From a virus: DNA of 64,000 nucleotides. This document shows, one piece after another, positions 14,491 through 46,689 of this stretch. Numbering within the stretch: position 1 is the first letter of the stretch; every line of letters begins with the position of its first letter. The position numbers and the translations under genes were made by a program. Location of the stretch: IMG/VR virus record IMGVR_UViG_3300025671_000038. The stretch is one strand, 5' to 3'. The notes under the pieces were generated by a model, which did no database searches, was not told where the DNA came from, and saw only the letters and a list, made by a program, of their open reading frames with translations.

Positions 14491-16407
14491 TTACACTCCC
14501 TTTATTAGATCATTATAAAGGTTGGAAACCTCCCTTGGAACCAATTTCTTGAATTTAGAAAAGTCCCTATCCGAAAGTGTTTGTCTAACCTTAGTTCCGG
14601 AGGTACCCCTTGGGGTCTCTTCCAGTGAGAAGCCTGGACTTAATTTGTCCTTTATGTCGGATACCTTTATGTAATCCATCTGTTTAGAGTAATCGTCGAT
14701 ACGATCCTCCCCAGCACCTACTAGCTGAGGGTCATATCCCATGGAGATCAATTTTGCTACGCCAGACCCTAAAAGACCCCTAGTTACCATCTCATATCCG
14801 GCTATTTCGTCGTTGTTTTGAACAACAGCTTCCATATATCTCCTAACAGTTTCGGGGTCGAATGGGGATTTACCCGATTTATTATGTCCAGGATGAACAA
14901 CCAGTAGGTAAGATGGGTACCCATTTTTATCCATCATATGTTTGGCCATTTTTAAATGCCCTGAATGAAATGGCTGAAATCTCCCCATGATGATATTAAC
15001 CTTCTGTGAATTATTCTCATCCTCATCTTCCTCAATCACTTGGATTTCTTCAGGAGCTGAAGAATTAGCATCTATGGTTTCCAAAGTATTTATAAACTCA
15101 TCATAAGAATGGAAATGGTCCTCGTCGCTATCTGAGACATCATCTTCCTCCTTGATATAATTAACCGGCTGAACAAACTCCCTTCTAAACTCATCGAATG
15201 AGAAAAAGTGTGATTCATTAACCTTACTCTTAGGCTTTTTGATGTACTCCTTTATGTCCTTAATCAGGGAATTAAGTTGGTCCATCATACCAACCGTTAT
15301 GATTCCACCAGCTCTGGTCTTGATTTTCCGGAACGAATTAAGCATCAACTTAAATAAAGACTCGAAAGATTCATCCTGCTTAACTAGTTTGAGAACCCTG
15401 CTATCTCTAACCATATCCATATTTAACCTAAAGTCATCTCTCTTTAAATATTCGGGCTCTTCGAAATCAGTACCAGCATATTTTTTGGAATAACGATCTA
15501 GGAATTTCACGAAAACATCGGACATGAATGAGATGTATCTTTCGTCGTCGCTTTCACCCTGTACATCAAAGGAGTCAATTCCTTCCTCCAGAATGAAGTT
15601 CATAACATCCATTATAGTTATCCCCAAGAAATCACTAGGTTTTTTAGTCTTTCGATTCTGAGCTTTCTGTTTAGCCATCTCTGTAAAAACCGGATCAACC
15701 ATTTTGGCAAGCACGGTATCACTCTCTTTATCCGGCTCGCCGAACCTGAAAACTACACCCTCCACGTCCTTGTCCAGATCATCATTCAGTGCTGTTTTAG
15801 TTAATTCAGGATTTAGAGTCTTTATAATGAATCTCACGAAGCTATTAGTCCGGAACTTTTCAACCAACTCCTTGAAGGGGGTTTCCATAAATTCCATTAA
15901 GTCGGATTTCTGATCCTCACTTAATCTACCCTGAAATATAATGGGGGGTTTCTCTACCCCCAGTAAGTCCGCCCAGTCATCCAATTTTTCTTTGTCCTGT
16001 ACGGTCTTCTTTATCTTACCCCCGTCTCCCATTTGGTGTACGTAGGAAAGTATCAGGTTATTTTTCGGGATCCTATCATATACAATTTCAACCGGAGCCT
16101 TGTTAGCAAAATACTCAAGTCCAAATCTCCATCCTCTAGGGATTCTCTCAAGTATATGTGGGGGTAGTGATTCTATATACTGGATTGGTTTCTCGTAGTA
16201 TTTCATCAAGGTACGATCTACCAGGGTAATAGGATTTCTTTGGTCCCTCCGATAAAATCTAAATTTACCGCTTTCTCTATCTCTCTCGAAAGAAAAGGCA
16301 GATCCATCCATCTTTTCATTAATCGTTACAAACTGATTAAAGAGCTGATTTATAAAATCTGCTCCTTTTTTGTTGTACATGTCATATAGATGATTAATCC
16401 CCGCCAT
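14491..16407 (-). CDS. Fusion protein: N-terminal ATP-dependent ligase-type nucleotidyltransferase domain (Rnl2-like) plus C-terminal HIGH-family cytidylyltransferase/NMN adenylyltransferase-like domain
   Basis: Ligase motif I NEKMDGS, III GLEYF, IV DVEGVVFR, V LAKMVD; C-terminal IIMGRFQPFHSGH (HxGH) and TSGTKVR. ATG 16407 preferred. Confidence 0.75.
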   Translation of the reverse strand: MAGINHLYDMYNKKGADFINQLFNQFVTINEKMDGSAFSFERDRESGKFRFYRRDQRNPITLVDRTLMKYYEKPIQYIESLPPHILERIPRGWRFGLEYFANKAPVEIVYDRIPKNNLILSYVHQMGDGGKIKKTVQDKEKLDDWADLLGVEKPPIIFQGRLSEDQKSDLMEFMETPFKELVEKFRTNSFVRFIIKTLNPELTKTALNDDLDKDVEGVVFRFGEPDKESDTVLAKMVDPVFTEMAKQKAQNRKTKKPSDFLGITIMDVMNFILEEGIDSFDVQGESDDERYISFMSDVFVKFLDRYSKKYAGTDFEEPEYLKRDDFRLNMDMVRDSRVLKLVKQDESFESLFKLMLNSFRKIKTRAGGIITVGMMDQLNSLIKDIKEYIKKPKSKVNESHFFSFDEFRREFVQPVNYIKEEDDVSDSDEDHFHSYDEFINTLETIDANSSAPEEIQVIEEDEDENNSQKVNIIMGRFQPFHSGHLKMAKHMMDKNGYPSYLLVVHPGHNKSGKSPFDPETVRRYMEAVVQNNDEIAGYEMVTRGLLGSGVAKLISMGYDPQLVGAGEDRIDDYSKQMDYIKVSDIKDKLSPGFSLEETPRGTSGTKVRQTLSDRDFSKFKKLVPREVSNLYNDLIKGV

Positions 16408-16412
16408 TCTTA

Positions 16413-16853
16413 TCAATTATAGTTTATATCGTTATTCGAACCGGCTTTAATGAAGTGAGAACCAAACTGAAGATCCATTTCAGACTTAGCCTTCCCATTT
16501 ACTATTAAATAACCTATACCTTTTATGATAGTTTCCAATAGAATTTTCGATTTATCTCTCAAATCTTTCTGGTATAGCTCAGATAACTCCAGTAAAAGAT
16601 CATCCAGGTCGGGGGCACTATCTTCCTTAGTTATAAGGTCAAATATTTCTTTCTCCATGGTATAAACAACATCATCCTCCAATAAAATATCCCAGTCTCC
16701 ATTCTTATTCTCGGATAAGCTGCCGTGGTTACCGAGTACCGTGGAAAATTCTATATTGTCACCTTCTCTTCCTACCAAGAGCGGGGAATCATTCTCCAAG
16801 AAAACCTCCAGAGCACCGTACATTAGGTCGTTATGTCTATTAGTAAAATCCAT
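16413..16853 (-). CDS. Hypothetical acidic protein
   Basis: 146-aa ORF coupled to the upstream stop at 16853. Confidence 0.6.
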   Translation of the reverse strand: MDFTNRHNDLMYGALEVFLENDSPLLVGREGDNIEFSTVLGNHGSLSENKNGDWDILLEDDVVYTMEKEIFDLITKEDSAPDLDDLLLELSELYQKDLRDKSKILLETIIKGIGYLIVNGKAKSEMDLQFGSHFIKAGSNNDINYN

Positions 16854-21677: not shown

Positions 21678-22631
21678 TTAAAGGTCAGAATAGAGATCAT
21701 CCAAAGAAGAAGCTGTCTCTGGACTAGATGGTTGCTTCAGGGGTTGTTCCTCTTGTGGGGTGTTTCCAACCTTCGTCGAAGATACCTCGTTGTAGATATC
21801 GTCTGCGGTTCTAGAGGTGGAAGGTGCAGGGGTAGACGAAACGTTAGCTCCGGACATAACTTCATTAACCATTCTGCCATCCGGTACTGTGTTCCTGATG
21901 ATGTTCATCACCCTTTCCGTGGTATTCTCGTCCCAATCCTTGTATTCAAAATTGGTAAGGTTATCCGGTCCCGTTTTAAGATACTCCAGAATAGTATCCA
22001 TGTCCTTCTTGTTCTTACCCATCTTCTTTCCGTCTATCTCTATGGGTGTATTGTTACCCACGAATTGACAGAGATCGTAATTGTTCCATTCACCAACCTT
22101 TCTAGAATGTATAGAGAATAGCTTACCCTCGAACAGATCATATGGGTTGCAAGGGTCACCGTATTCTGGCTTCAGTTGAGATTCCAGCATATCGTTGATC
22201 TTACGACCAAATTTAAAGGTCATGATCTTCCCTTCTAGCTCGGGGTTGTTTTTATCCTGTACGATCTGGATGAGAGAGTAATAATCCTCCTTTCTGGAGA
22301 AGTTTCTAGCCAGATCCTGATCTGCAGCAGAATTGGAGTTCTTAAGCTTCCAAAAGATGTCTTTAAGAACTGATTTTTTACCTACTGTGGACGGACAATC
22401 TACAGGGAATCCATCTCCTGTTGTAGGATCATTAAGATATACGTAGTATTTCTGAATTTTGGATTTGGCCGGATCTACGTGGTTTGGTAAAAACCTAATT
22501 AGAGACTTGTAAACCCCATCCTTTCCGTTTTCCGGGTACGGCTTGTAAAATTCTAAATCTCTCGAATCTTCCTTCTTGCTCTTCGTTACGAAGTTATCAA
22601 CATCTAAGTTGAAAATGTCTAAATTACTCAT
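21678..22631 (-). CDS. Single-stranded DNA-binding protein (T4 gp32-like)
   Basis: LIRFLPN, CPSTVGKK, YYSLIQIVQDKNNPELEGKIMTFKFGRKINDM, NPYDLFEG, WNNYD; acidic tail SLDDLYSDL. Confidence 0.9.
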   Translation of the reverse strand: MSNLDIFNLDVDNFVTKSKKEDSRDLEFYKPYPENGKDGVYKSLIRFLPNHVDPAKSKIQKYYVYLNDPTTGDGFPVDCPSTVGKKSVLKDIFWKLKNSNSAADQDLARNFSRKEDYYSLIQIVQDKNNPELEGKIMTFKFGRKINDMLESQLKPEYGDPCNPYDLFEGKLFSIHSRKVGEWNNYDLCQFVGNNTPIEIDGKKMGKNKKDMDTILEYLKTGPDNLTNFEYKDWDENTTERVMNIIRNTVPDGRMVNEVMSGANVSSTPAPSTSRTADDIYNEVSSTKVGNTPQEEQPLKQPSSPETASSLDDLYSDL

Positions 22632-22670: not shown

Positions 22671-23456
22671 CTAAGTGTCCCAAAAGTTTCCCCTAGACTG
22701 TATATATCCCGAACTTTTTTTTATATCGTTACCCTTTCTTACTTGCTCCGTGGGTAACATGATCCCTCGGAGTGAAACCTGAAGGTCACTTCTCACAACA
22801 CCATATTCCGATGTGAGTAAATGGTTTCTTAAAAGAGTCTCGGGGTGAAAGAATATCGCATCCCTTGTAAGATAGTTCTCAAGATTTTCATAGAGGCTAC
22901 AATAGTGACCCATTGCATCCCTAGCTCCATAAGCTATCACATCGTTAATACCTCCCCTCCAATCAAATCCCTGAGGGATAGCGATCATATTTTTTCCAAA
23001 ATTGAAAAAAAGATCGTTGTGCACCTTTATATCAAATCTTCCCTTTATAATATAGTCATATCTCCTACCCACGGATCTCTCATACTTCTGCATAAGATGG
23101 TATGAGGAATTGATTTTATACCACATACAAAAAACAGACTGCGGATTAATCTCGCCATTCAGTGGGGAATAACCCTCATAAATCATCGATCTCTCCCTTA
23201 TTTTGGTTATAGTCTCCGATTCAAAATCCTCCATCAGGATGGATTTTGGCTTATAGAGGGAAATAGCATCACCAACGCTAAGACTATCTCTCAGGTTACC
23301 CGTATAGGGCTGAACGGTTTCTCTTATCTCGTCAGAGGGATTCCAGGATGAGATGAAAACATCCGGGGAGTACTTGTCAAGTATCCTGCTTTTTATATAG
23401 GGGTAACATTCCAGACCTTCCCTAAATTGACCCGAAAGAAGTAAAGCTACTCTCAT
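22671..23456 (-). CDS. Putative glycosyltransferase-fold protein of glycan loci
   Basis: MRVALLLSGQFR...DVFISSW, YDYIIKGRFD, GINDVIAYG, HPETLL: a pattern typical of viral and bacterial glycan-locus proteins. Confidence 0.55.
   Translation of the reverse strand: MRVALLLSGQFREGLECYPYIKSRILDKYSPDVFISSWNPSDEIRETVQPYTGNLRDSLSVGDAISLYKPKSILMEDFESETITKIRERSMIYEGYSPLNGEINPQSVFCMWYKINSSYHLMQKYERSVGRRYDYIIKGRFDIKVHNDLFFNFGKNMIAIPQGFDWRGGINDVIAYGARDAMGHYCSLYENLENYLTRDAIFFHPETLLRNHLLTSEYGVVRSDLQVSLRGIMLPTEQVRKGNDIKKSSGYIQSRGNFWDT
22701..22708 (-). promoter_or_regulatory. GATATATA putative phage promoter
   Basis: In the 3' end of the upstream ORF, 70 nt upstream of the gp32 ATG. Confidence 0.45.
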
Positions 23457-23896
23457 CTATACTTTCCTATATAGTCACTGCAAATTCCTGAGCAGACCGC
23501 GATATCCTCATCATTAACTTCAGGCATAACGGCTATGCTATTTTCTATTGGTTGCTTTCCTACTAAGGCCCAGCGATAACCCTTACTAGTAAAAACCACA
23601 TCGTCGGATTCATGAACAAAATAATTTAGAAAATCCCCCGCCGGATCTATTCTGGAAAGCTCACGAAAAGCTAGCAAATTTTTACAATGGATCCAAAGCT
23701 TCCTGGAGTTCTTCAAAAGGAATTCGTATTGAATCTCGTGTTGTGGCTCATCGTGTCCAAGTTTAAACATCCCGTCAATGAACCAGAGATCTATTTCAAC
23801 TTCGTAATTGTATAAAGCTTCAACTATATAATCAGGATCGTTCTCCCTTTTGGAATTAGGACCATCAATATTTCCGCGATGTGATATTAATATCAT
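23453..23896 (-). CDS. Truncated glycerophosphodiester phosphodiesterase (GDPD/PLC-like) protein
   Basis: ISHRGN, EN, EVEIDLW, GHD, WIHCKN motifs. Confidence 0.7.
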   Translation of the reverse strand: MILISHRGNIDGPNSKRENDPDYIVEALYNYEVEIDLWFIDGMFKLGHDEPQHEIQYEFLLKNSRKLWIHCKNLLAFRELSRIDPAGDFLNYFVHESDDVVFTSKGYRWALVGKQPIENSIAVMPEVNDEDIAVCSGICSDYIGKYR

Positions 23897-23902
23897 CTGC
23901 TC

Positions 23903-25093
23903 TCAAGAATTCACAAACTTATAGATAGCTTCTCTATACTCTTTTCCCCTCTCACCATCGATTGCCTGCCTCATAGCAATCGCACCACTTTTAGTTCCGC
24001 TTGGGTGACCGTGCATTGCTCCTCCTACATTTGCTAGGTAATCAACACCAACCTGCTCGTTTATCTGGTCCACAAGACCAGGGTGGAATCCACAGCTTAA
24101 AGCAGGGAGAGTTCCTTGATTTCTTGATTGCTCTATAGCGGCTAAAACCTCCTCCTCGTCAGCAGGATAATATCCGCCAATCATTCCCGAGTGAATAAAG
24201 TCCACCCCCATCATTCCAGCAAGCTTGCACATGAAAGGCCAAGAGATGCTAAATTGGTGATCCGGGTTTGTTATAACTCTATCTCCGCTCTTTTGGAAAT
24301 GCATAAAAAGCGGGAGATCGAGCTCCCTTATGTTTTTATAAACTCCCAGCCCGCACCAAAAGTTAACGTGTATCCCATTACCTCCTAGTTCGTAAACCTG
24401 TTTTACTCTCTCCAGTATATAGGCAGGATCTGAATGGATAGAAACACAATAAACCACATTCTTATCTTTCAAATAATCCATGATAAGTGGAACCCGGTCC
24501 TCTATCTTACAGAATGATGGGCTGGAAAGTATTTCATCCTCCTTGATGAAATTCACTCCTCCCTCAACCATTTCCTTAACCATCTCCAGCATGACTTGTG
24601 GCGAGACCCCAGTTTTTGGCTTTAGTATTCCTCCGAGGAGTGGCTTGTTGTAGACACCGGTAAATTTTCTTATACCATCAATCCCATATTTAGGTCCCAT
24701 AAAACAATCAGAAACACATTCCGGAAAATCTATGTCAATCAACTTGCATTTTTTTATTTCGGCTATATCCATCTGACCTCCCATTACATTCACCAACAAG
24801 TGAGCAACCCCGTCAGTTTTAAAGTCAATGTTTATCACAGGGAAAGCAATAGTGACCTCCCCCGTTTTTTCATTGCTCATATCTCCCATATCACCGACGA
24901 TCAAACAAGAGTGATTCTCAAAGAGCTCATCAGTTTCCCAGACACTCCTGGATGATGGGTTACCCACACTTTGACCTATTGCTATATTCCAAGCAGCAGA
25001 TGCTAAATTCTTAGAACATTCAACATAATACTTAGCAAAGAAGTACTTGTCAGCATCTATTTGATTTCTCGATTTAAATAATTCAGATTTCAT
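23903..25093 (-). CDS. RuBisCO-like protein (form IV-type RLP)
   Basis: LLGGILKPKTG, GGVNFIKEDE (K201/D203/E204 equivalents), MHFQKSG, DFIHSG, LSCGFHPG, VGGAMHGHPSGTKSGAIAMRQA. The loop-6 Lys of true RuBisCO is absent. Confidence 0.9.
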   Translation of the reverse strand: MKSELFKSRNQIDADKYFFAKYYVECSKNLASAAWNIAIGQSVGNPSSRSVWETDELFENHSCLIVGDMGDMSNEKTGEVTIAFPVINIDFKTDGVAHLLVNVMGGQMDIAEIKKCKLIDIDFPECVSDCFMGPKYGIDGIRKFTGVYNKPLLGGILKPKTGVSPQVMLEMVKEMVEGGVNFIKEDEILSSPSFCKIEDRVPLIMDYLKDKNVVYCVSIHSDPAYILERVKQVYELGGNGIHVNFWCGLGVYKNIRELDLPLFMHFQKSGDRVITNPDHQFSISWPFMCKLAGMMGVDFIHSGMIGGYYPADEEEVLAAIEQSRNQGTLPALSCGFHPGLVDQINEQVGVDYLANVGGAMHGHPSGTKSGAIAMRQAIDGERGKEYREAIYKFVNS

Positions 25094-25403
25094 ACTTATC
25101 TCCCGGTTTAGAGGGTGTCTTAACTATAAAAACCTCGCAGTCTTCGAGGAAAACAGGATTAGCTATCTCGTATTTCCTGATAACGAAAACATCACCAGCT
25201 TTGAGTATTTTGTCCTGTATAATCATTCTACCCTTGTGGAGGTAGTTTATTTCGTCAGCTTCTTTGTGATAGTGTGCTGGCCAATCCTCTCCTTTCTTAT
25301 GCCTTTTAAAGCATATCTCAAATTGATCGGTTTTATAAGCGGAGGGAAGGAAGTCTCCAACGAACCATCCACCCTGGTAATCATCTATTTTAGATACTTC
25401 CAT
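25083..25403 (-). CDS. Cupin-fold protein (putative sugar isomerase/epimerase)
   Basis: GWFVGDF, HKKGEDWPAHYHKEADEINYLHKG (HxH...E cupin motif 1), LKAGDVFVI (motif 2). Confidence 0.75.
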   Translation of the reverse strand: MEVSKIDDYQGGWFVGDFLPSAYKTDQFEICFKRHKKGEDWPAHYHKEADEINYLHKGRMIIQDKILKAGDVFVIRKYEIANPVFLEDCEVFIVKTPSKPGDKYEI

Positions 25404-26136
25404 TGGCTATTTTATTTTTATAAATCTCAAGATCTTCCGGGGTACCTATCGGGAAATGAAGGTTGAAGAAATATGGCAATATCTTTTTACCCCTCTTTAT
25501 CAAATAGTTATATGAGGGAGCAACGTAAAACTCACTGTTATACCGGTCATTAGCTTCTATCATCTCCATCGAGGATTCTACGAAATCGGACCCTCTCTTC
25601 CAGTAGTGCAATCCGTTAGTAGCTATATTTGATATAACTATTTTTTCCTTCACGTCACAAACTTCCCCGTTTGGATCCAATTTGACGTAACTATTCTTTT
25701 TAGAGGAAGATAAAAAGCATCCTAAGAACCCATCACAAGCCGTATTTGAAGCAAACTTGGATAAAACATTAAGATCATAGTCCAATATAATCTGATCACA
25801 GTTTACTATGATCAAAGGATCATTGGTATTAATGATAGACTGGGCCAGTAGAGCAGTACAGGCTGGTCCTTCTGTTAATTTCGGGGTGGAAATAACGTCA
25901 TGTGAAATAGGCATATCGGATATGTGCCTCTTAAACTCATCGACAGATATGTGCTCCTCGTTGATCACGAATATAAAATGGGCAGACTCATTGTGGAGGT
26001 TTCCGACTACGGTCCGTATCATAGAATCGTCGATGACCTTGATATAAGGTTTAATCTCGTTATACCCAGCATCGGAAAATCTTTTTCCCATCCCGCCTAG
26101 GGGTATCAGTATATTAATCCTCCTTAAGTCTTCCAT
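25390..26136 (-). CDS. Sugar-phosphate nucleotidyltransferase (NTP_transferase, GT-A fold)
   Basis: NILIPLGGMGKRFSDAGY...KPYI, TEGPACT, IIVNCDQ, VKEK, EFYVAPSYN, GTPEDL. Confidence 0.85.
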   Translation of the reverse strand: MEDLRRINILIPLGGMGKRFSDAGYNEIKPYIKVIDDSMIRTVVGNLHNESAHFIFVINEEHISVDEFKRHISDMPISHDVISTPKLTEGPACTALLAQSIINTNDPLIIVNCDQIILDYDLNVLSKFASNTACDGFLGCFLSSSKKNSYVKLDPNGEVCDVKEKIVISNIATNGLHYWKRGSDFVESSMEMIEANDRYNSEFYVAPSYNYLIKRGKKILPYFFNLHFPIGTPEDLEIYKNKIANGSI

Positions 26137-26782
26137 CTAAAAAAATACAAATCCAGGTAGCATCAATAAGATCATCCAGAGGTTTATTTACATTTCCGCT
26201 GGGCGTTATCCATTCTCCCCTATTACTTTCAAGTATATTAGTGAAATAGCTCAGATTGGTTTCAGCTCTTTTACAATTAACTAGGGAATCATAGAGCTGA
26301 TGTTTTTTTGCATTCCCTTTAATAGCGAATTTCTTAATGGAGGTCGGGGAAAAAACATAAAAATTCGAACTACCCACCTCGTCAACTATTTTTTTTCTAA
26401 GTAGGGCAGTAGCCATAGAGATGTCAATTAGGGCATTACCATTGGATGCAAAACTTAAACCCTCCATAGCTATATAGATCTCGTCACCCTCTTGGGTGTG
26501 AGATATGACTGAATCCCAGAATCGGTCGACTAGGTCGGAAAAGTAATCAATCTTAAGCCTCTCCCTTTCGGAGTATTCCTCAGGCATTTTCTCTTTTCCC
26601 ATAAACATGAGATCAAACCCATCCATTTCGGAGAGGAATGCGAATGGTTTTGCTTTAGATCTTTTTAGTGATTCTTCTGTGCGATCACTTCGGGTAAGTG
26701 ATCCCCATTTAAATTGATTATCCCTAAGCAAACAAAAAGCTGGCGAGTTCAGAGAAAAATCTATTCCGATAAGAGTTCTCAA
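26114..26782 (-). CDS. RuvC-like Holliday junction resolvase
   Basis: LIGIDFSLNSPA, IAMEGLSF, SPTSIKKFAIKGNAKK, DDLIDA: RNase H-fold catalytic D/E/D/D. TTG start. Confidence 0.8.
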   Translation of the reverse strand: MRTLIGIDFSLNSPAFCLLRDNQFKWGSLTRSDRTEESLKRSKAKPFAFLSEMDGFDLMFMGKEKMPEEYSERERLKIDYFSDLVDRFWDSVISHTQEGDEIYIAMEGLSFASNGNALIDISMATALLRKKIVDEVGSSNFYVFSPTSIKKFAIKGNAKKHQLYDSLVNCKRAETNLSYFTNILESNRGEWITPSGNVNKPLDDLIDATWICIFLDGRLKED

Positions 26783-26809: not shown

Positions 26810-26817
26810 TATATATC
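26810..26817 (-). promoter_or_regulatory. GATATATA putative phage promoter
   Basis: Immediately after the terminator 26823-26849 and upstream of the RuvC-like gene and the sugar cassette. Confidence 0.6.
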
Positions 26818-26822
26818 CTCAC

Positions 26823-26849
26823 AAAAAACCCCCGAATTAAGGGGGTTTT
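26823..26849. terminator. Rho-independent terminator (possibly bidirectional)
   Basis: AAAAAACCCCC-gaattaa-GGGGGTTTT, 22 nt after the stop of 26871..27236. Confidence 0.8.
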
Positions 26850-28591: not shown

Positions 28592-31033
28592 TTAGCTTCT
28601 GCCACCGAAACCGAAATCAGGGTCAAAGTTTGCAGAACCGCTATCGCTACCGGATTGGTTAGCAGTAGATCCATTGGAAGAAGCAGATCCGCCAGTAGCT
28701 CTTCCCGCACTGGTGTTTCCATAAGCAAGAACTAGCTCCATATCTCCACTTCCGAATATCCCGTCAACTGCATCTACAAAAAGATTTTTCGTAATTCCAA
28801 CATAAAGCTTGTAGCCGGTTGAACTTGGGTCCAGGAAATATGCTATTATTTCCTGAGTAGTCCACCCGGTAGCTATTTTACCCTGCACGTCGGAGGAGAT
28901 TGCAGATTTCAGCTGAACTGGGGTTAGCTTAGGTTGGTTATTTCGGTTTACATTACCAGCTTTTCTGCCTAATCCACTAGTTCCAGAAGTTCCGTTTTGT
29001 ACTCCCGAAACCTGCCAGGAACTTTTTCCAACTCTTTTTGATACAGGTTTAGTCCTAGGTGAGGTTGGAGCTACCACCACTTCAGCTGCTACAGCTGTTT
29101 GAACTGGCTCAGTCTCTCCGTCCTTTAGCCAATTACCCCAGTAAAGAGTAGAAAAAGAATTTCCACCTATTTTTGCAGTATTGACGGCTCTACTAGTATT
29201 AGAATCCCTTTTGGATGCAATTACAACATCACGGGAAGAATCTCTTAAACTAATAGCTTTCTTAGCTAGCAGAGATTTAACCTTATTAACCTTAGAAATT
29301 CCCCTCGTATCAACATTATCGCCATCGGGATCTGGCGGTTTATTAGTGATATAAAATCTTCGGTCTGTAAACTGAAGGATCTGTGTAGAGATCGACTCAT
29401 CCACTTTGAAAGCAAGCTCCCCCTTAGAAGGCTTTGCTATAGTAGCGTCAGCAATTGAAGGTGCATAAACTTTTTTACCCTTGTTGTCTATGAAAACCAT
29501 ATTGTAAGTTCCAGAGGAGCTAAGGTCTATCTCCTGGGTTGTATTTCCTTGTCCTTTCTTAAAGAAGGAAAATTTGTAGTAGTTATCAAACGGGCTGATC
29601 TTTATATAAGCTTTGCCTACCCCATACGAAACTGAAGGTGTACTAGACTCATTGGTTTCAGTTAGTGTAGTTCCATTTACTTCCAGATTTGTCAGAGAAG
29701 TGTTTACTAGATTTCTATCAAAGAACACGTTAGAAAATTTGGTAATCTCTCTGGGCGATATTTGATTAACCGGTACTGAAATATCAGTTTTACCTCCTAG
29801 CTTATTGTATATCTTCTGTTGCTGAGGTAAAACGGAAAGTTGCAGAGGAGCAATGGTAGTACCATATTTACCAGGATCAGTTGAAGTATAAGTAGCAACC
29901 CTCATGGTTCTTGTCTGATTCTTACTGTTAATGAGTGTCATTGTATACCTCAATGAAAAGCTCGTAGCAACATTAGAATACCTAACAATAGGTCTAAATA
30001 AATTCGGGACGTCGTATGCTGAAGTCTGAATACTAGTAAAATTAGATGTTTCAAGCCAAGCTGCACCAACCTGCTCAAGAACCTCTATCCTATTCTCTAT
30101 ATAGTAGCTGTTTCCTATAGAATTCTGAAACAGTATGAAATCCTCTATAAAACCCCCATCATCTGTTCCGAAATATTCAAAGAAATCTCCAGTATCTGCT
30201 GGAGCAATATAAGCTCCTATGTTACTGAATGGATCAGTGGGTTCGAGAGATAATGCTGCTAAAAGTTGAGTACCATAGGTTTCATATCCGCTAACAATCG
30301 TAGTATCAGTTATGGAATAGGCACTTATTCTTAGAGGCTGAGAAGCTAAAAATCCTCTCCCACTTTTCGAAGTTTTAGCGGCAAGGGTTAAAGGTCGATT
30401 GGATACACTAGCAGCATTGTATTTATTGACCATATCTGAGAGTGAAGGTATCTTCACCTCGAAATACTTATCATATATGTTAGCACCTATTGTTAAAGGA
30501 CTAGGATTCAACGTATACTGCTGGGAATTACCCTTTGAGAGTTTAATCTGCGAAAAGGTAACATAAGATCCGTCTACATCCGGGTACTTAACATTTAGTA
30601 TCAATCCATCCAGGTTATCCAAATTATACCCGGATAGGATGTGGTACCTCACGGAGTCATACACAACACTGAGATTCGATGGAAAAGATATAGGAAGATC
30701 AGCGGTGTTGGTAAGCTCAGATTTAAAGTCGTTATAAGGGACTATTAAATTAGGGTTTAGAGTTACGAAGGTCGTGGAATTAGTTTGCACCACACTATTG
30801 TTGGACGTGTTCTGTGTAATTGAAGCATTCTCGTCCAGATTGAATATTTGAACGTCATTAGAGGGCTGTCCGTCCGAATCTTCCAGTAAGCCATTTACGA
30901 GCTTATTATAACCCACTGTGGGGCTGCCAATATTGACAAAGTACTTCTCCGGGGTAGGTGGGCTGGCATACATATATTCCATGACCAGATACGGGGAAAG
31001 TTGTACATATTTAGAGGTTGTCGTAAAAGCCAT
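28592..31033 (-). CDS. Putative virion structural protein
   Basis: 813 aa, S/T/N-rich and beta-rich, inside the tail gene block. Confidence 0.55.
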   Translation of the reverse strand: MAFTTTSKYVQLSPYLVMEYMYASPPTPEKYFVNIGSPTVGYNKLVNGLLEDSDGQPSNDVQIFNLDENASITQNTSNNSVVQTNSTTFVTLNPNLIVPYNDFKSELTNTADLPISFPSNLSVVYDSVRYHILSGYNLDNLDGLILNVKYPDVDGSYVTFSQIKLSKGNSQQYTLNPSPLTIGANIYDKYFEVKIPSLSDMVNKYNAASVSNRPLTLAAKTSKSGRGFLASQPLRISAYSITDTTIVSGYETYGTQLLAALSLEPTDPFSNIGAYIAPADTGDFFEYFGTDDGGFIEDFILFQNSIGNSYYIENRIEVLEQVGAAWLETSNFTSIQTSAYDVPNLFRPIVRYSNVATSFSLRYTMTLINSKNQTRTMRVATYTSTDPGKYGTTIAPLQLSVLPQQQKIYNKLGGKTDISVPVNQISPREITKFSNVFFDRNLVNTSLTNLEVNGTTLTETNESSTPSVSYGVGKAYIKISPFDNYYKFSFFKKGQGNTTQEIDLSSSGTYNMVFIDNKGKKVYAPSIADATIAKPSKGELAFKVDESISTQILQFTDRRFYITNKPPDPDGDNVDTRGISKVNKVKSLLAKKAISLRDSSRDVVIASKRDSNTSRAVNTAKIGGNSFSTLYWGNWLKDGETEPVQTAVAAEVVVAPTSPRTKPVSKRVGKSSWQVSGVQNGTSGTSGLGRKAGNVNRNNQPKLTPVQLKSAISSDVQGKIATGWTTQEIIAYFLDPSSTGYKLYVGITKNLFVDAVDGIFGSGDMELVLAYGNTSAGRATGGSASSNGSTANQSGSDSGSANFDPDFGFGGRS

Positions 31034-32107: not shown

Positions 32108-33790
32108 CTATATTATTACACCACCACCTCCTCCAGGAACTGTTACAACTGAGTTGTAGCTAACCCATCCGGCTATATTAGCATTATTTCCATCGACACC
32201 TCCTGCAGTGCCCGCGGAAGTATCATTATTACCGAAAGCTTCATAGAAGAGAGAAGAATTACCATTGATAAAGGTGAGTCTTATTCTTTTGCACCCCAAA
32301 GCCCCAGGATTCATGCCAGAAGAATAGTTATCAGGTATTTCTACCAGATTATAGTTCGAGGATCCATTAATATTTACTCTTATTCCACCAAAGGATCTGG
32401 TAGTGTCCTCGACAAGAAATTCTATTGTTCTATATTTATATAGTGACAGATTTAACCAGCTGTAGTTGTTACCTACGGTAAGATAAAATCTGCCCTTACG
32501 ATAATTACTAACTACAGAGACTGCGATAGCAGATGGTTTAATAATCACAATGTCCTCCGATGGAGTAACTGGAACATGGTAATATGTAACCCCGCTTCTA
32601 ACAAAGGTGGAGGTGAACGGAGTGGATATCGTCTGTGTGTATCTAGTTAGGTTTCCTCCGGTTACACCCGAGGTATTAGAAGAAAAATTAGAGGATCCGA
32701 TTTGGAATGAATCCCCGTTAGATCTAACTTCAAAGGACTGTCCCCTGTGTGCCGAGGCAGAATTAGAATCCCTGCCCAGCTGTAAAGCACTTCCATAACC
32801 AGAAGTTGTCCCATACCCTGCGGTATTAGATAATCCAATCCTCATGCCCTTACTTCCAGTAGAATTTGCGTTTATAAGTCCACTCGTTCCATAGGCACTT
32901 GTAATTCTATGGGAGAAACCGGTAGGACCTATAATAACAGGACCGGAAGTAAAATCAGCCCCGAAAATAGCACTACTTAACTGGAGATTAGATGAATTAA
33001 CACTGAGATTTCCAGAAGAAATAATTTGGGAACTAGAAGCTGTTATTCCTATGTAGCTCTGGGATTTTATATTATTCGATCCAGCAGGAAATGAATCAAT
33101 ATTCCCGGTTACACCCAACGTTATAGATTTAGCAGCATATCTGGAAAAGCCCGGATTTTTCCAGACTAAGTCATAATCCGAGGTTGAAGAATTCTTCCAA
33201 TAGAACCCTCCTATGTTACTTCTATCAAAAAATGTTTTATCGATCCCTAATATTGGACTGTAGGTATTAGAAACAGTACTTATCAACAACTTTGCAAAAT
33301 TCGGATTAACGTCACCTGTAGTTCCGCTTAAGTCCGAAAGGGTCAAATACTTATCCCCGGGACTAGAATTTATAAGTACCGCATTATCCTCAGTAGATCC
33401 CCCTGGGCCCGATATTTGAGATAGCGATGCAAAAATACCCGTTGTCTCCAGAGTTTCTCCAGTATTAATCCAACCACCAGTAGCTGAAGAATATTTATAC
33501 ACATCCTGACCACCGGTATTTCCTATATCAATCCAGATATCACCAGGTTGGGATATTGATGCTGAGGGCTGCGAGGGGGAGAAGTACCAATTAGATGCTC
33601 TATCCCCTGTTGTACCTCGATCCCCGTCCAATCCAGCCTGACCTATTATGCCGGTAGCACCTATAGCTCCGTTAGGTCCTTGTTCCCCTATGGCATTAAA
33701 ATGTACCTGGTTAAAATTATGGTTTACCTTAGTAATTATCTTATTCTTAGAATCTCCAGGTAAAATGTATTTAGTATTGAATGTAGCCAT
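32108..33790 (-). CDS. Tail fibre/appendage protein with a short collagen-like Gly-X-Y stretch
   Basis: GEQGPNGAIGATGIIGQAGLDGDRGTTGDR; N-terminal half is paralogous to 33809..35296. Confidence 0.65.
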   Translation of the reverse strand: MATFNTKYILPGDSKNKIITKVNHNFNQVHFNAIGEQGPNGAIGATGIIGQAGLDGDRGTTGDRASNWYFSPSQPSASISQPGDIWIDIGNTGGQDVYKYSSATGGWINTGETLETTGIFASLSQISGPGGSTEDNAVLINSSPGDKYLTLSDLSGTTGDVNPNFAKLLISTVSNTYSPILGIDKTFFDRSNIGGFYWKNSSTSDYDLVWKNPGFSRYAAKSITLGVTGNIDSFPAGSNNIKSQSYIGITASSSQIISSGNLSVNSSNLQLSSAIFGADFTSGPVIIGPTGFSHRITSAYGTSGLINANSTGSKGMRIGLSNTAGYGTTSGYGSALQLGRDSNSASAHRGQSFEVRSNGDSFQIGSSNFSSNTSGVTGGNLTRYTQTISTPFTSTFVRSGVTYYHVPVTPSEDIVIIKPSAIAVSVVSNYRKGRFYLTVGNNYSWLNLSLYKYRTIEFLVEDTTRSFGGIRVNINGSSNYNLVEIPDNYSSGMNPGALGCKRIRLTFINGNSSLFYEAFGNNDTSAGTAGGVDGNNANIAGWVSYNSVVTVPGGGGGVII

Positions 33791-44478: not shown

Positions 44479-46689
44479 TTACCCGTTATTAGTTAAGCTT
44501 TTTCCAACTATATCAGCCTGGAATATCAGATTATCCGAATCAACACACACAATATCTATTACTGGCATGTAATCATAGGAGCTAATATCAGAATCCACCA
44601 GAGAAACTATCAAAGTAGAGTAAGAAACTCCGCTTGGATTAGATAGAGGATATCTGCCAGCAGCATCCGTAAGGAAAGTTATATTGAAGTCACCTGGTAT
44701 AACCTGGTCGCCAAAGCTAAATCTCATAGTCTGTCCCTCCTTCCATCTGGGAGAAAGGTCACTTATTCTGATCACTAAATCAGAAGAGAGAGTAATAGGT
44801 ACGCCATTATTGACGTGCTTTATATAGTTGGTGTAGTTGACAAGGTTAACGTCGTTAGGAGATGAGTTTTGAAGTGTCACGGTTCCTAGATTCGAGCCGA
44901 TATTAAAATCCTGATTGTCGTTAGATATAGTAACCTGATTCGGAGTACTTCTATCCACTATCACTCCAGCACCCTGTTTTATTCCATCTAAGCTATATGA
45001 GATCTCGACAGAGGTCTCGTTGTTAACCACCGCTCTTATTAGTTCATAGTTTTGATTTATCAAAGACATAACAGCCTGTGTATTGTTAAACAAGGCTTGG
45101 TTTGAAGCATAAGAGTTTTCCAGCGAAGCTATTCTTCTATCAAGATTAGCAGTAGTGTCTGTGGAGAGAGTAAGATTTTCTAAGTTAGACACCCGATTTT
45201 CTAGCTGAGTATATGTAGAAGCATTATTATTCAACGTGGAAGATGCATCCTGAAGGACATTCATAGCGTCCATGAACATGGTCAGCGAGAAAGGAGAATA
45301 ATCATTGATTGCTTGCTCCACCCCGGTTTGGTCAATATCTACATCAAATTTTATATTTAACTTTAGTCCATAAGAGTTACCATTTAGCTTGGATACTACA
45401 TTTGGCTTAAATTTCTTAAATACCGGGATACTGTAAATATCAGATCCCTCTGACTGCACGTCATCCAGGAACAAAACTCCATATAGATTGGTCGCAGAAT
45501 CAGTCGGAACAGCAGGATCATAAACGTCATAATAGACCAGAACACAATTAAAATCAAAATCCTGAGATATCGATGTAGAATTGAATTCCTCTAGAGTGCT
45601 TATCGAAGCATCATCGACTATCTGTTTGTAAGAGTCAGGATCAAAATCTATACCGACTGAATCCAATCTTGTTCTAACATATTTCTGGAATCCTGCTCCC
45701 CCGGTAGCTCCGGAATAAGACTTAGATAAAATCTGGGATGTCGGATCAGTAAAAGAGGAATCACTAAAATAGGTGTTAGCGGTATCCCTGGGGCTATACC
45801 AGTTTCCGTCTCCAGTAGCTCCATCTGTCGTGTCCTCGTAAGTAACGCTAGGTACTCCTAGAACATCATCATCAAAGATTGCCAGATTGGTAAGTCCACT
45901 TGGATTTAGTTCATCGTAAGCCCTTCCAGTCAAATATTCAGTGTCCAGTGGATCTGTTGGGCTGTTGGTCCATTGGTAGTCAGGATAATAGTTAGCATCG
46001 ACTACGTTCTTAAATAATACAGTTGGAGTATTACCATCCTTAGTGGGAACGTGGACGTAAACTTCTGAATACGTATTATTGTTATTCTTTACGGAGTTAA
46101 CTATATCCAAATTTCCGATATATTGAACTACCCTATTGTAAGTAGACCCAGTCAATCCATAAGATCCAGTTCCACCGGAGGGATCTCCCTCGACATACCT
46201 TTTCTGCGTTACTGGAAGAGAATCGACTATGGTAACGGTATTTTGATCAAGGGCTGAAACTACTTGGTCGCTTGAAGCTGGCTGGAATCTTATAGCACCA
46301 AGCTCCTTAAGCCATTTGAAAAATATTCTCTCTGAAACATTTTGCTTTAGGTCCGAATTGTACACATCTGAACTAAGTATAGTAGTCTCGAGATTTAGAC
46401 AGTAGCTCTGGAAACTTTGCGAAAAGTCAGTATTTGCGTTACCAGTTATGATTTTTCCCGCACTTGTAGCCTTATCTATGAAAGCGCCATCGGGAGCGTT
46501 CAGCTTAATCGAATTACCAAGGGGATCTCCAGAATTTATCTGAGGTATATTTAGCAAAGCAAATTTGGAGAACTTAAATTTGTTTACCGAGTTGTTAAAC
46601 GTAAAGGATAAATCCTCTGCAGCAGAAGAGAAGGCGTAAAACGTTCCGCCCTGTACCTGTAGAGGCCTTATAAAAGGTGTTTTTGCCAT
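44479..46689 (-). CDS. Virion structural protein
   Basis: 736 aa; MAKTPFIRPLQVQGGTFYAFSSAAEDL N-terminus and a central coiled coil. Confidence 0.55.
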   Translation of the reverse strand: MAKTPFIRPLQVQGGTFYAFSSAAEDLSFTFNNSVNKFKFSKFALLNIPQINSGDPLGNSIKLNAPDGAFIDKATSAGKIITGNANTDFSQSFQSYCLNLETTILSSDVYNSDLKQNVSERIFFKWLKELGAIRFQPASSDQVVSALDQNTVTIVDSLPVTQKRYVEGDPSGGTGSYGLTGSTYNRVVQYIGNLDIVNSVKNNNNTYSEVYVHVPTKDGNTPTVLFKNVVDANYYPDYQWTNSPTDPLDTEYLTGRAYDELNPSGLTNLAIFDDDVLGVPSVTYEDTTDGATGDGNWYSPRDTANTYFSDSSFTDPTSQILSKSYSGATGGAGFQKYVRTRLDSVGIDFDPDSYKQIVDDASISTLEEFNSTSISQDFDFNCVLVYYDVYDPAVPTDSATNLYGVLFLDDVQSEGSDIYSIPVFKKFKPNVVSKLNGNSYGLKLNIKFDVDIDQTGVEQAINDYSPFSLTMFMDAMNVLQDASSTLNNNASTYTQLENRVSNLENLTLSTDTTANLDRRIASLENSYASNQALFNNTQAVMSLINQNYELIRAVVNNETSVEISYSLDGIKQGAGVIVDRSTPNQVTISNDNQDFNIGSNLGTVTLQNSSPNDVNLVNYTNYIKHVNNGVPITLSSDLVIRISDLSPRWKEGQTMRFSFGDQVIPGDFNITFLTDAAGRYPLSNPSGVSYSTLIVSLVDSDISSYDYMPVIDIVCVDSDNLIFQADIVGKSLTNNG

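What the first reader, a model, noticed from the sequence alone, without database searches (positions are those of the whole stretch)
22671..26136. Phage sugar-nucleotide cassette built around a RuBisCO-like protein
Seen: five tightly packed, co-oriented genes with overlaps of 4-14 nt or a gap of 6 nt. In transcription order they are NTP-transferase, cupin, RuBisCO-like protein, truncated GDPD-like phosphodiesterase and a glycan-locus GT-like protein. They follow a RuvC-like gene and a GATATATA promoter. Established: characterised RLPs act as enolases (methionine salvage), epimerases/isomerases or (trans)carboxylases on phosphorylated sugars; none that I know of sits in a nucleotide-sugar pathway. 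Inference: the phage makes an unusual (keto- or branched-chain) sugar phosphate with the RLP and cupin, activates it as an NDP-sugar and transfers it to virion proteins, host surface or DNA. This would be a new RLP function and the best candidate here for an undescribed system. RLPs may already be reported on phage contigs, so novelty needs checking.
Basis: partly seen in the sequence, partly recalled or inferred. Interest (0 to 1): 0.87.

Follow-up and report, generated by a model that had tools for sequence, protein, structure and literature searches.

The report
Phage RuBisCO-like sugar-activation gene cassette
A large freshwater phage carries a RuBisCO relative that cannot fix CO2 and that sits, here and in hundreds of other phages and some bacteria, beside a sugar-activating enzyme, a small metal-binding cupin and a miniature phosphodiesterase; this points to an untested sugar-building job for the RuBisCO fold.

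Summary
The five co-oriented, tightly packed genes are real. They encode a sugar-phosphate nucleotidyltransferase, a 106-aa metal-motif cupin, a 396-aa RuBisCO-like protein (RLP), a 147-aa complete mini-GDPD barrel (not truncated) and a GT-A-fold DUF7796-like protein.

The RLP keeps the Mg/carbamate core (K175, K177, K201, D203, E204). It lacks E60, N123, H294 and K334, so it is not a carboxylase. It belongs to a sharply separate clade, the phage "form IV-like" RLPs reported without a function by Jaffe et al. 2019.

Among 54 dereplicated viral RLP loci:
- 51 have the nucleotidyltransferase within 4 kb;
- 44 have the cupin;
- 39 have the mini-GDPD;
- 19 have the GT-A protein.

SAR11, Saccharibacteria, Verrucomicrobia and Planctomycetes genomes carry the same core. 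Nucleotidyltransferase-cupin fusions exist, and one RLP-nucleotidyltransferase fusion was found.

A result I did not see in the earlier notes: the same nucleotidyltransferase plus mini-GDPD core more often carries a fused beta-phosphoglucomutase-like HAD domain, and those loci have no RLP (0 of 42, against 14 of 19 unfused).

Best reading: RLP and cupin make an unusual sugar phosphate that is nucleotide-activated for glycan decoration. The chemistry is unproven. This scan has already found the cassette on other DNA, in at least 38 genomes. No paper I could search links this RLP to nucleotide-sugar genes.

The parts
26829..26844 (-). Terminator-like GC hairpin followed by a T run. It closes the upstream unit.
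26810..26817 (-). GATATATA motif 28 nt upstream of the RuvC-like start. Candidate promoter element of the unit; a consensus match only.
   Evidence: 9 of the 10 window copies lie on the coding strand
26114..26782 (-). RuvC-like resolvase gene. It is probably co-transcribed and overlaps the next gene by 23 nt. It is context, not a conserved cassette member: it accompanies the cassette only in the close relatives L001/L002.
   Evidence: phrog_159 5.5e-14
25390..26136 (-). Sugar-phosphate nucleotidyltransferase of an uncharacterised subfamily. It is the hub of the cassette.
   Evidence: PF00483 5e-11; profile against PDB: 4EVW 5e-30, RmlA/GMPP/HddC about 1e-8; within 4 kb of the RLP in 51 of 54 viral loci
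25083..25403 (-). 106-aa single-domain cupin with an invariant HxH(x4)E(x6)G metal motif. Candidate sugar-phosphate isomerase or tautomerase.
   Evidence: 44 of 54 viral loci; fused to the nucleotidyltransferase in L075 and L109
23903..25093 (-). RuBisCO-like protein of the phage 'form IV-like' clade. The Mg/carbamate enolisation core is kept; the carboxylation residues are lost.
23453..23896 (-). Miniature GDPD/PLC-like phosphodiesterase barrel with all catalytic motifs conserved.
   Evidence: 39 of 54 viral RLP loci; 34 of 42 HAD-fused nucleotidyltransferase loci
22671..23456 (-). GT-A-fold, DUF7796-related putative glycosyltransferase. Accessory member of the cassette.
   Evidence: 19 of 54 viral loci
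22701..22708 (-). Second GATATATA copy, inside the 3' end of the last cassette gene and ahead of the gp32-like SSB gene (21678-22631).

Best explanation
The cassette is a biosynthetic module that makes and activates an unusual sugar for a glycoconjugate.

Shown:
- The nucleotidyltransferase and the mini-GDPD form a widespread core.
- The RLP and the cupin are an upstream add-on. They largely replace the beta-phosphoglucomutase-like HAD domain that this nucleotidyltransferase subfamily otherwise carries.

Inferred:
- The RLP uses its retained carbamylated-Lys/Mg2+ site to enolise a ketose phosphorylated next to the carbonyl, as every characterised RuBisCO-superfamily enzyme does.
- The metal cupin completes an isomerisation or tautomerisation. 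Together the two deliver a sugar 1-phosphate without a separate mutase or phosphatase.
- The nucleotidyltransferase converts this to an NDP-sugar.
- The GT-A protein, or other glycosyltransferases in other genomes, transfers the sugar to a surface glycan or virion component.
- The mini-GDPD acts on a phosphodiester of the product or donor, either trimming it or transferring a phosphosugar.
For: Cassette conservation across unrelated flanks: of 54 viral RLP loci dereplicated at 90%, the nucleotidyltransferase is present in 51, the cupin in 44, the mini-GDPD in 39 and the GT-A protein in 19. Of 9 cellular loci, the counts are 8, 4, 5 and 0.

Fusions:
- Nucleotidyltransferase-cupin in L075 and in L109, a giant-virus MAG.
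- RLP-nucleotidyltransferase in P0270, whose nucleotidyltransferase domain is 36% identical to the window's.

Unbiased neighbour census: NDP-sugar SDR epimerase/dehydratase in 29 of 63 loci, plus FkbM and other methyltransferases, GT2, DegT aminotransferase, UDP-GlcNAc 2-epimerase and WavE.

In a complete Pelagibacter genome the cassette lies between a GT9 heptosyltransferase and a CMP-sugar-type cytidylyltransferase.

The nucleotidyltransferase profile is nearest to sugar-1-phosphate enzymes.

Nucleotidyltransferase-centred census: 42 of 61 dereplicated loci carry an N-terminal HAD_2 domain, nearest to the beta-phosphoglucomutase family. None of these has an RLP, whereas 14 of 19 unfused ones do (Fisher p = 5e-10). 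The mini-GDPD accompanies both types.

A cyanophage relative has the nucleotidyltransferase fused to DHBP synthase, another Mg-dependent enediol enzyme acting on ribulose 5-phosphate.

The 23-position active-site signature of the RLP family is nearly invariant, which implies one specific conserved reaction.

Metatranscriptome contigs from two studies, 100% identical to the window, cover parts of four of the five cassette genes (all but the cupin).
Against: - No biochemical data exist for any member. The substrate, the nucleotide and the acceptor are all inferred.
- The HAD-versus-RLP exclusivity is not absolute. L038 has HAD-nucleotidyltransferase, cupin and RLP in a row, and L039, L081 and L099 also have a HAD nearby. 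HAD and RLP+cupin may therefore act in series rather than as alternatives.
- Related sequences share labels, so the Fisher p-value overstates independence.
- In this window the cassette sits among replication genes, not in a glycan island.
- SAR11 copies lack the cupin.
- The RLP-nucleotidyltransferase fusion rests on one 2.5-kb contig and could be a lost stop codon.
- The role of the mini-GDPD is a guess.
- RNA-library contigs do not exclude carried-over DNA.
Confidence: 0.45

Rival explanations
1. Same module, different donor chemistry. The nucleotidyltransferase activates the terminal phosphate of a ketose or alditol phosphate, as in the CDP-xylulose/CDP-arabinitol, CDP-ribitol or IspD-type reactions (recalled from memory). 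The unit is then installed as a phosphodiester-linked decoration, and the mini-GDPD acts as the phosphodiester-handling enzyme.
For: - The mini-GDPD is the most faithful partner of this nucleotidyltransferase subfamily: 34 of 42 and 10 of 14 loci.
- Weak IspD and inositol-phosphate cytidylyltransferase matches.
- The DHBP-synthase fusion in S-SKS1 would give a terminally phosphorylated keto-sugar.
- RLP substrates are ketose phosphates.
Against: - Sugar-1-phosphate enzymes (RmlA, GMPP, HddC; about 1e-8) score far better than IspD (8e-4).
- Leloir-type GT-A and GT2 transferases are the usual neighbours.
- No LicD, TagF or fukutin-type phosphotransferase was seen in the census.
Confidence: 0.15
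2. The activated sugar is used to hypermodify the phage's own DNA, for example by glycosylating a modified pyrimidine, rather than a glycan.
For: - In this window the cassette is embedded among replication and recombination genes: RuvC, gp32-like SSB, primase and helicase.
- Phage DNA-sugar pathways do use nucleotidyltransferases (PMC13326640).
- A first-stage note (e1-5800770) reports a dCMP-hydroxymethylase-like gene with glycosyltransferases elsewhere in this phage.
Against: - The same core occurs in the LPS-type loci of SAR11 and in other bacteria.
- In most phages it lies in clusters with SDR, aminotransferase, methyltransferase and GT2 genes.
- No thymidylate-synthase-family gene is in the 116-kb record I could search. 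The noted gene lies outside that record.
- The paper on glycosylated 5-hydroxycytosine does not mention RuBisCO or cupin.
Confidence: 0.12
3. A catabolic or salvage module. The nucleotidyltransferase runs in reverse (NDP-sugar + PPi gives sugar 1-phosphate). The cupin and RLP then feed the sugar phosphate into central metabolism, by analogy with the archaeal AMP / ribose-1,5-bisphosphate pathway that feeds form III RuBisCO.
For: - Form III and related RuBisCOs work on C1-phosphorylated sugars derived from nucleotides.
- IF-2B (ribose-1,5-bisphosphate isomerase) fusions with RuBisCO appear among the distant hits (P0305, P0322).
- The best NCBIfam score of the RLP is to form III.
Against: - The carboxylation residues are lost.
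- No AMP phosphorylase or IF-2B isomerase appeared in the neighbour census.
- The neighbours are biosynthetic glycan genes.
- The family is a separate clade.
Confidence: 0.08
4. A methionine-salvage-like pair. The RLP would be the MtnW enolase and the cupin an acireductone dioxygenase, recycling methylthioadenosine during infection.
For: - MtnW and the cupin MtnD belong to one pathway (established knowledge).
- The MtnW structures 2oek and 2zvi are among the best PDB matches.
Against: - MtnW models score 157 and 129 bits against cut-offs of 409 and 514.
- The catalytic Lys at the N123 position is Gly/Gln here.
- The clade is separate from MtnW-like sequences.
- No MtnA, MtnB or MtnX partners appeared in the neighbour census.
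- The cupin is 106 aa, much smaller than acireductone dioxygenases (size from memory).
- Linkage and fusion to a nucleotidyltransferase are unexplained by this reading.
Confidence: 0.03

Closest known systems
'Form IV-like' RuBisCO-related proteins of phages and Beckwithbacteria (Jaffe, Castelle, Dupont & Banfield 2019; bioRxiv 10.1101/386292, also held as PMC6389311)
   Same: RLPs on large myovirus-type metagenomic contigs from diverse waters. They are highly divergent from other RLPs, lack carboxylase residues and branch apart from all other forms. My tree gives the same picture.
   Different: In the passages I searched (term search), the paper left the function open and I found no mention of the gene neighbourhood. 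I could not align the window protein directly with their sequences, so identity of the clades is inferred from source, residues and topology.
MtnW/YkrW 2,3-diketo-5-methylthiopentyl-1-phosphate enolase
   Same: Same fold and the same K175/K201/D203/E204 metal-carbamate core. About 25-30% identical. A monophosphorylated ketose substrate is likely.
   Different: Far below the family cut-offs. Lacks the Lys base at the N123 position. Keeps K177. Different clade and different neighbours.
Bifunctional type II phosphomannose isomerase / GDP-mannose pyrophosphorylase (ManC/AlgA/XanB type; architecture recalled from memory)
   Same: A nucleotidyltransferase domain followed by a metal cupin isomerase, as in the fused proteins of L075 and L109. 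Small 'mannose-6-phosphate isomerase' cupins are among the cupin's PDB matches.
   Different: No significant match to the MannoseP_isomer family itself. The nucleotidyltransferase belongs to another subfamily (nearest 4EVW). An RLP is added.
Cyanomyovirus glycan clusters with a HAD-nucleotidyltransferase fusion (S-CAM9 gp067, DSL-LC03, S-PRM1)
   Same: The nucleotidyltransferase is about 40% identical. The mini-GDPD is 38-42% identical and is annotated as glycerophosphoryl diester phosphodiesterase in DSL-LC03. Paralogues of the GT-A/DUF7796-like protein are present.
   Different: A beta-phosphoglucomutase-like HAD domain stands where the RLP and cupin are here. None of the deposited phage genomes searched has the RLP.
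Archaeal AMP pathway (form III RuBisCO with ribose-1,5-bisphosphate isomerase)
   Same: A RuBisCO-fold enzyme is coupled to nucleotide-derived, C1-phosphorylated sugars. The RLP's best NCBIfam score is to form III.
   Different: The carboxylation residues are lost, there is no isomerase or phosphorylase partner, and the context is biosynthetic.

Membership tests
Bona fide RuBisCO (forms I-III) | Catalytic set E60, N123, K175, K177, K201, D203, E204, H294 and K334, plus the phosphate binders R295, H298, H327, S379, G381, G403 and G404 | tested here: not met
   Kept: K175, K177, K201, D203, E204, H327, S379, G381, G403, G404. Changed: E60G, T65N, W66P, N123G (an invariant Gln follows), T173I, K334Y, G380C. 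Around H294, the multiple alignment and the form III profile alignments give H294Q, R295K/R and H298D. The MtnW pairwise alignment shifts this by two residues, but position 265 varies (H/F/Y/M) across the family, so it is unlikely to be the catalytic His.
Bona fide RuBisCO (forms I-III) | Score above the curated family cut-off | tested here: not met
   rubisco_III 181.7 bits against 497; PRK04208 168.5 against 438; form II 91.7 against 489
MtnW DK-MTP-1-P enolase | Curated cut-off, and a Lys base at the N123-equivalent position | tested here: not met
   156.9 bits against 409 and 129 against 513.6. Gly/Gln at that position. Separate clade.
OiaX 3-oxo-isoapionate-4-phosphate decarboxylase RLP | Curated cut-off | tested here: not met
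   141.7 bits against 700
Phage 'form IV-like' RLP clade (Jaffe et al. 2019) | Encoded on phage contigs; divergent key residues; branches outside all other RLPs | tested here: met
   At least 346 IMG/VR contigs. In a FastTree of 132 superfamily sequences the 40 family tips are monophyletic (support 0.999). With midpoint rooting, this clade plus P0283 lies opposite all the other sequences. Not aligned directly to the published sequences.
GDPD / PLC-like phosphodiesterase superfamily (147-aa protein) | TIM-barrel fold with the HR, EN, ExD and HD catalytic/metal motifs | tested here: met
   The motifs are invariant in 40 homologues. Profile E 0.002 to GDPD 3i10. VIA Z 10.2, rmsd 3.3-3.5, 138-140 residues aligned; the top 22 rows are all GDPD/PLD/PI-PLC. 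No Pfam hit and about 90 residues shorter than usual, so it is a divergent mini form.
GT-A glycosyltransferases (261-aa protein) | GT-A Rossmann-like fold | tested here: met
   Model pLDDT 86. Foldseek GT6/GT8 E 1e-6, TM about 0.45. VIA Z 10.3-11.8 to GT25, GT62, GT6 and GT2 enzymes, rmsd 3.3-3.9, about 180-190 residues aligned.
GT-A glycosyltransferases (261-aa protein) | DxD-type metal/nucleotide-binding motif in the right place | tested here: inconclusive
   D32, D134, D142 and D172 are invariant, but I did not map them onto a liganded template.
Sugar-1-phosphate nucleotidyltransferases (RmlA/GMPP type) | N-terminal G-x-G-x-R ... K signature and family profile | tested here: met
   PF00483 43 bits against 21.2. 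P12, G15, G17, R19, K29 and P30 are invariant. 4EVW 5e-30. Substrate and nucleotide specificity are not testable with these tools.
Cupin superfamily (106-aa protein) | Motif 1, G(x)5HxH(x)3-4E(x)6G | tested here: met
   H44, H46, E51 and G58 are invariant. Cupin_2 scores 20.9 bits, below the 27.2 cut-off. Profile against PDB: quercetinase domains 3e-6, small M6P-isomerase-like cupins 7e-4. The motif 2 His is absent.

The most novel reading that the evidence does not exclude
The RuBisCO fold here performs a new reaction class. It would move the carbonyl along a common pentulose or hexulose phosphate, or enolise it at C1. With the cupin, this yields a sugar 1-phosphate directly, a 'mutase-free' entry into nucleotide-sugar synthesis. 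The pair would stand in for the beta-phosphoglucomutase-like HAD domain of sister cassettes. The product would be a so far undescribed NDP-sugar, used in the surface glycans of SAR11 and other abundant aquatic bacteria and manipulated by their phages.
Probability: 0.15. Interest if true: 0.85.

Novelty: new variant of a known kind. Interest (0 to 1): 0.62.

Why it matters
RuBisCO-like proteins are a classic case of functional divergence within one fold. Every characterised member acts in carbon fixation, sulfur/methionine salvage or sugar-acid catabolism. A branch devoted to building an activated sugar would add a new functional class.

The branch is abundant. I found about 2600 homologues in the 90% clusters, at least 346 IMG/VR contigs, and copies in SAR11. 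It may therefore shape the cell-surface chemistry that decides phage adsorption in lakes and oceans.

The HAD-versus-RLP pattern gives a concrete, testable idea of which step the RLP supplies.

Tried and rejected
- The RLP cassette DNA (blastn) and the RLP protein (tblastn) against 50,697 deposited phage genomes gave no match. No isolate with the RLP was identified. Records near the window may be hidden.
- Single-sequence PDB searches for the 147-aa and 261-aa proteins gave nothing useful. The profile of the 261-aa family against PDB gave nothing.
- Foldseek for the 147-aa model gave only weak rows (best E 7e-3). VIA wide was needed.
- The cupin profile returned no FdtA/QdtA-type 3,4-ketoisomerase, RmlC or acireductone dioxygenase at E up to 10. 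This is inconclusive, not an exclusion.
- PADLOC gave no defence-family match for any of the five proteins.
- PF00303 (thymidylate synthase / dCMP hydroxymethylase) is absent from the 116-kb record. That record is only about 42% complete.
- Literature: no paper in the library holds RuBisCO-like, nucleotidyltransferase and cupin together. Searches for form IV, phage and AMG, and for IV-like RLPs, gave no functional study.
- There are no RLP fusions among my 91 loci. The only fusion is P0270, on a short contig whose DNA could not be fetched.
- GATATATA enrichment is not significant.
The H294 register had to be argued from alignments.
- I ran no complex prediction, because the report does not claim physical binding.

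Full report
**Observation.** One search lists five minus-strand ORFs exactly as reported: 25390-26136, 25083-25403, 23903-25093, 23453-23896 and 22671-23456. The overlaps are 14, 11 and 4 nt, with one 6-nt gap. A RuvC-like gene (26114-26782; phrog_159 5.5e-14) overlaps the first gene by 23 nt. It is preceded by a terminator-like hairpin (26829-26844) and a GATATATA box (26810-26817). A second box lies at 22701-22708, ahead of the gp32-like SSB gene. The box is not statistically enriched (10 found against 5.8 expected), but 9 of the 10 copies are on the coding strand.

The window is part of a large myovirus-type phage. It carries a baseplate wedge protein, tail fibres, ribonucleotide reductase, helicase, primase and a gp32-like protein. 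It comes from a 116-kb IMG/VR record estimated at 42% complete. The DNA occurs in freshwater metagenomes and, 91-96% of sampled 31-mers shared, in runs labelled marine or seawater from other studies.

**The five proteins.**

1. *Nucleotidyltransferase (248 aa).* PF00483 scores 5e-11. A family profile hits the uncharacterised Vibrio protein 4EVW at 5e-30, and RmlA, GDP-mannose pyrophosphorylases and HddC at about 1e-8. IspD scores only 8e-4.
2. *Cupin (106 aa).* It is below the Pfam cut-off, but HxH(x4)E(x6)G is invariant in 15 homologues. The nearest solved relatives are quercetinase domains, small 'mannose-6-phosphate isomerase' cupins and KdgF.
3. *RLP (396 aa).* RuBisCO_large scores 2e-33. 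All curated equivalog models fall far below their cut-offs: form III 182 bits against 497, MtnW 157 against 409 and OiaX 142 against 700.
4. *The 147-aa protein.* It has no Pfam hit, but about 3000 homologues share its length. HRG..EN..E.D..HD is invariant, and a profile hit to GDPD 3i10 has E 0.002. The model has pLDDT 95.6. Its 22 best VIA matches are all GDPD/PLD/PI-PLC barrels (Z 10.2, rmsd 3.3-3.5, 138-140 of 147 residues aligned). It is a complete miniature barrel, not a truncated gene.
5. *The 261-aa protein.* Some of its relatives carry DUF7796. The model (pLDDT 86) has a GT-A fold: Foldseek GT6/GT8 at 1e-6, and VIA Z 10.3-11.8 to GT25, GT62, GT6 and GT2 enzymes.

**RLP active site and phylogeny.** Profile alignments to solved RuBisCOs and MtnW, and a 134-sequence MAFFT alignment, show which residues are kept and which are changed.

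- Kept: K175, K177, K201, D203, E204, H327, S379, G381, G403 and G404.
- Changed: E60G, T65N, W66P, N123G (followed by an invariant Gln), T173I, K334Y and G380C.

Around H294 the alignments disagree by two residues. Position 265 varies (H/F/Y/M) across the family, while Q267, K/R268 and D271 are conserved. I therefore take H294Q, R295K/R and H298D.

So the metal/carbamate enolisation machinery and the P1 phosphate site survive, but the carboxylation residues do not. The 23-position signature is almost identical in all 40 family members sampled, viral and cellular, which suggests one specific reaction.

In a FastTree of 132 superfamily sequences the family is monophyletic (support 0.999). With midpoint rooting it lies, together with one sister sequence (P0283), opposite every other sampled group: sequences with bona fide RuBisCO residues, MtnW-like sequences and other RLPs. 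This agrees with the 'form IV-like' phage clade of Jaffe et al. 2019, which was reported with its function left open. Cellular members (SAR11, Saccharibacteria, Verrucomicrobia, Planctomycetes) are scattered among the viral ones, which suggests repeated exchange.

**Is it a cassette?** I found at least 346 IMG/VR contigs encoding a relative. I fetched 80 viral and 10 cellular loci, called ORFs, clustered them and dereplicated at 90% RLP identity.

| Gene within 4 kb of the RLP | 54 viral loci | 9 cellular loci |
|---|---|---|
| Nucleotidyltransferase | 51 | 8 |
| Cupin | 44 | 4 |
| Mini-GDPD | 39 | 5 |
| GT-A protein | 19 | 0 |

These counts are lower bounds, because many contigs end nearby. 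Flanks are unrelated except in the close relatives L001/L002.

Fusions also link the genes. Nucleotidyltransferase and cupin are fused in L075 and in a giant-virus MAG (L109). The best-scoring representative in a 1.8-billion-protein library (P0270, 667 aa) is an RLP-nucleotidyltransferase fusion whose second domain is 36% identical to the window's enzyme. That fusion rests on a single 2.5-kb contig.

Other recurrent neighbours are an NDP-sugar SDR epimerase/dehydratase (29 of 63 loci), FkbM and other methyltransferases, GT2, DegT aminotransferase, UDP-GlcNAc 2-epimerase and WavE. In the complete genome of Pelagibacter sp. Uisw_094 the mini-GDPD, nucleotidyltransferase and RLP sit between a GT9 heptosyltransferase, a D-2-hydroxyacid dehydrogenase and a CMP-sugar-type cytidylyltransferase.

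**A new angle: what the RLP may replace.** The nucleotidyltransferase has 40%-identical relatives in cultured cyanomyoviruses (S-CAM9, S-PRM1, DSL-LC03). There it is the C-terminal half of a 460-aa protein with an N-terminal HAD_2 domain. It sits in glycan clusters that also hold a homologue of the mini-GDPD (38-42% identical) and paralogues of the GT-A-like protein. In S-SKS1 it is instead fused to DHBP synthase (5e-65).

Centring the search on the nucleotidyltransferase gave at least 583 viral loci. After dereplication of the 80 fetched:

| | HAD-fused (42 of 61) | Unfused (19 of 61) |
|---|---|---|
| RLP present | 0 of 42 | 14 of 19 |
| Cupin present | 3 of 42 | 13 of the 14 with an RLP |
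| Mini-GDPD present | 34 of 42 | 10 of the 14 with an RLP |

The RLP contrast gives Fisher p = 5e-10. All eight sampled N-terminal extensions are HAD_2 domains, nearest to the beta-phosphoglucomutase family at 93-107 bits, below that family's cut-off.

So nucleotidyltransferase plus mini-GDPD is the constant core, and HAD or RLP+cupin are mostly alternative front ends. The rule is not absolute. L038 has HAD-nucleotidyltransferase, cupin and RLP in a row, and three other RLP loci have a HAD nearby. Related sequences are also not independent samples.

**Mechanism proposed (inference).** All characterised RuBisCO-superfamily enzymes abstract a proton next to the carbonyl of a ketose that carries a phosphate on the adjacent carbon. 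Nucleotidyltransferases of this type need a phosphate on C1. The link between the two enzymes, the cupin fusion (an architecture like bifunctional PMI-GMP enzymes) and the near-exclusive swap with a mutase/phosphatase-like HAD domain all fit one model. In it, RLP plus cupin convert a ketose phosphate into the sugar 1-phosphate that the nucleotidyltransferase activates. A GT-A or other glycosyltransferase then transfers the sugar. The mini-GDPD acts on a phosphodiester of donor or product.

I give this 0.45. The rivals are:
- a variant in which a ketose or alditol phosphate is activated and installed as a phosphodiester (0.15);
- use of the donor for phage DNA hypermodification (0.12);
- a catabolic or salvage role (0.08);
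- a methionine-salvage-like role (0.03).

**Expression.** Contigs from two freshwater metatranscriptome studies, 100% identical to the window, cover parts of the RLP, the nucleotidyltransferase, the mini-GDPD, the GT-A gene and gp32. This is weak support only, because DNA carry-over is not excluded.

**Novelty.** Phage RLPs are published. I found no paper that links them to nucleotide-sugar genes. This scan has already reported the same cassette on other DNA, in at least 38 genomes, with the same general reading. I re-tested that reading here, and I did not see the HAD-versus-RLP pattern or the argument for the H294 register in those notes. None of the deposited phage genomes searched has the RLP, so experiments will need synthetic genes or a SAR11-type carrier.

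Noticed in passing
P0334 (distant RuBisCO-superfamily hit, 583 aa; not in the window): A TIR domain is fused to the N-terminus of an RLP (TIR_2 3e-13; weak PADLOC TIR matches). It could be an RLP recruited into a defence-type protein.
   Followed up: partly
P0305 and P0322 (726 and 742 aa; not in the window): An IF-2B-family (ribose-1,5-bisphosphate / MTR-1-P isomerase type) domain is fused to a RuBisCO that keeps the full catalytic residues. This looks like a one-protein version of two steps of the AMP pathway.
   Followed up: partly
L018:5001-6428 (Synechococcus phage S-SKS1, NC_020851): A relative of the cassette's nucleotidyltransferase is fused to a DHBP synthase (RibB) domain (5e-65). 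It sits beside a phosphoheptose-isomerase-like gene, a transaldolase and three paralogues of the GT-A/DUF7796-like protein. The record annotates it only as DHBP synthase.
   Followed up: partly
L109 (IMG/VR giant-virus MAG GVMAG-M-3300013093-49) and the Atlas cluster: The RLP, with a nucleotidyltransferase-cupin fusion, also occurs on a contig classed as Nucleocytoviricota. The nearest Atlas cluster of the GT-A-like protein is mostly Nucleocytoviricota.
   Followed up: no
window 14491-16416 (-): A 641-aa ORF whose C-terminal 170 residues match phage cytidyltransferase families (phrog_3041, phrog_395). The N-terminal 460 residues are unannotated.
   Followed up: no
window 28592-31033, 32108-33790, 44479-46689, 53126-54751, 62275-63687 (all -): Five large ORFs (470-813 aa) have no PHROG match at 1e-5. 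The 813-aa one has only 24-28% identical relatives, in huge uncultured phages and Flavobacterium phage MaF61.
   Followed up: no
G000 record against the scan's notes: First-stage notes place a dCMP-hydroxymethylase-like gene with glycosyltransferases 47 kb beyond the window start. That is outside the 116-kb record I could search, which has no PF00303 match. The RLP protein is also recorded on a 184,870-bp contig.
   Followed up: partly
L023:2719-3720 (Pelagibacter sp. Uisw_094): In SAR11 the cassette lacks the cupin. It is preceded by a D-isomer 2-hydroxyacid dehydrogenase and an unannotated 346-aa protein, which may take over the cupin's step.
   Followed up: no
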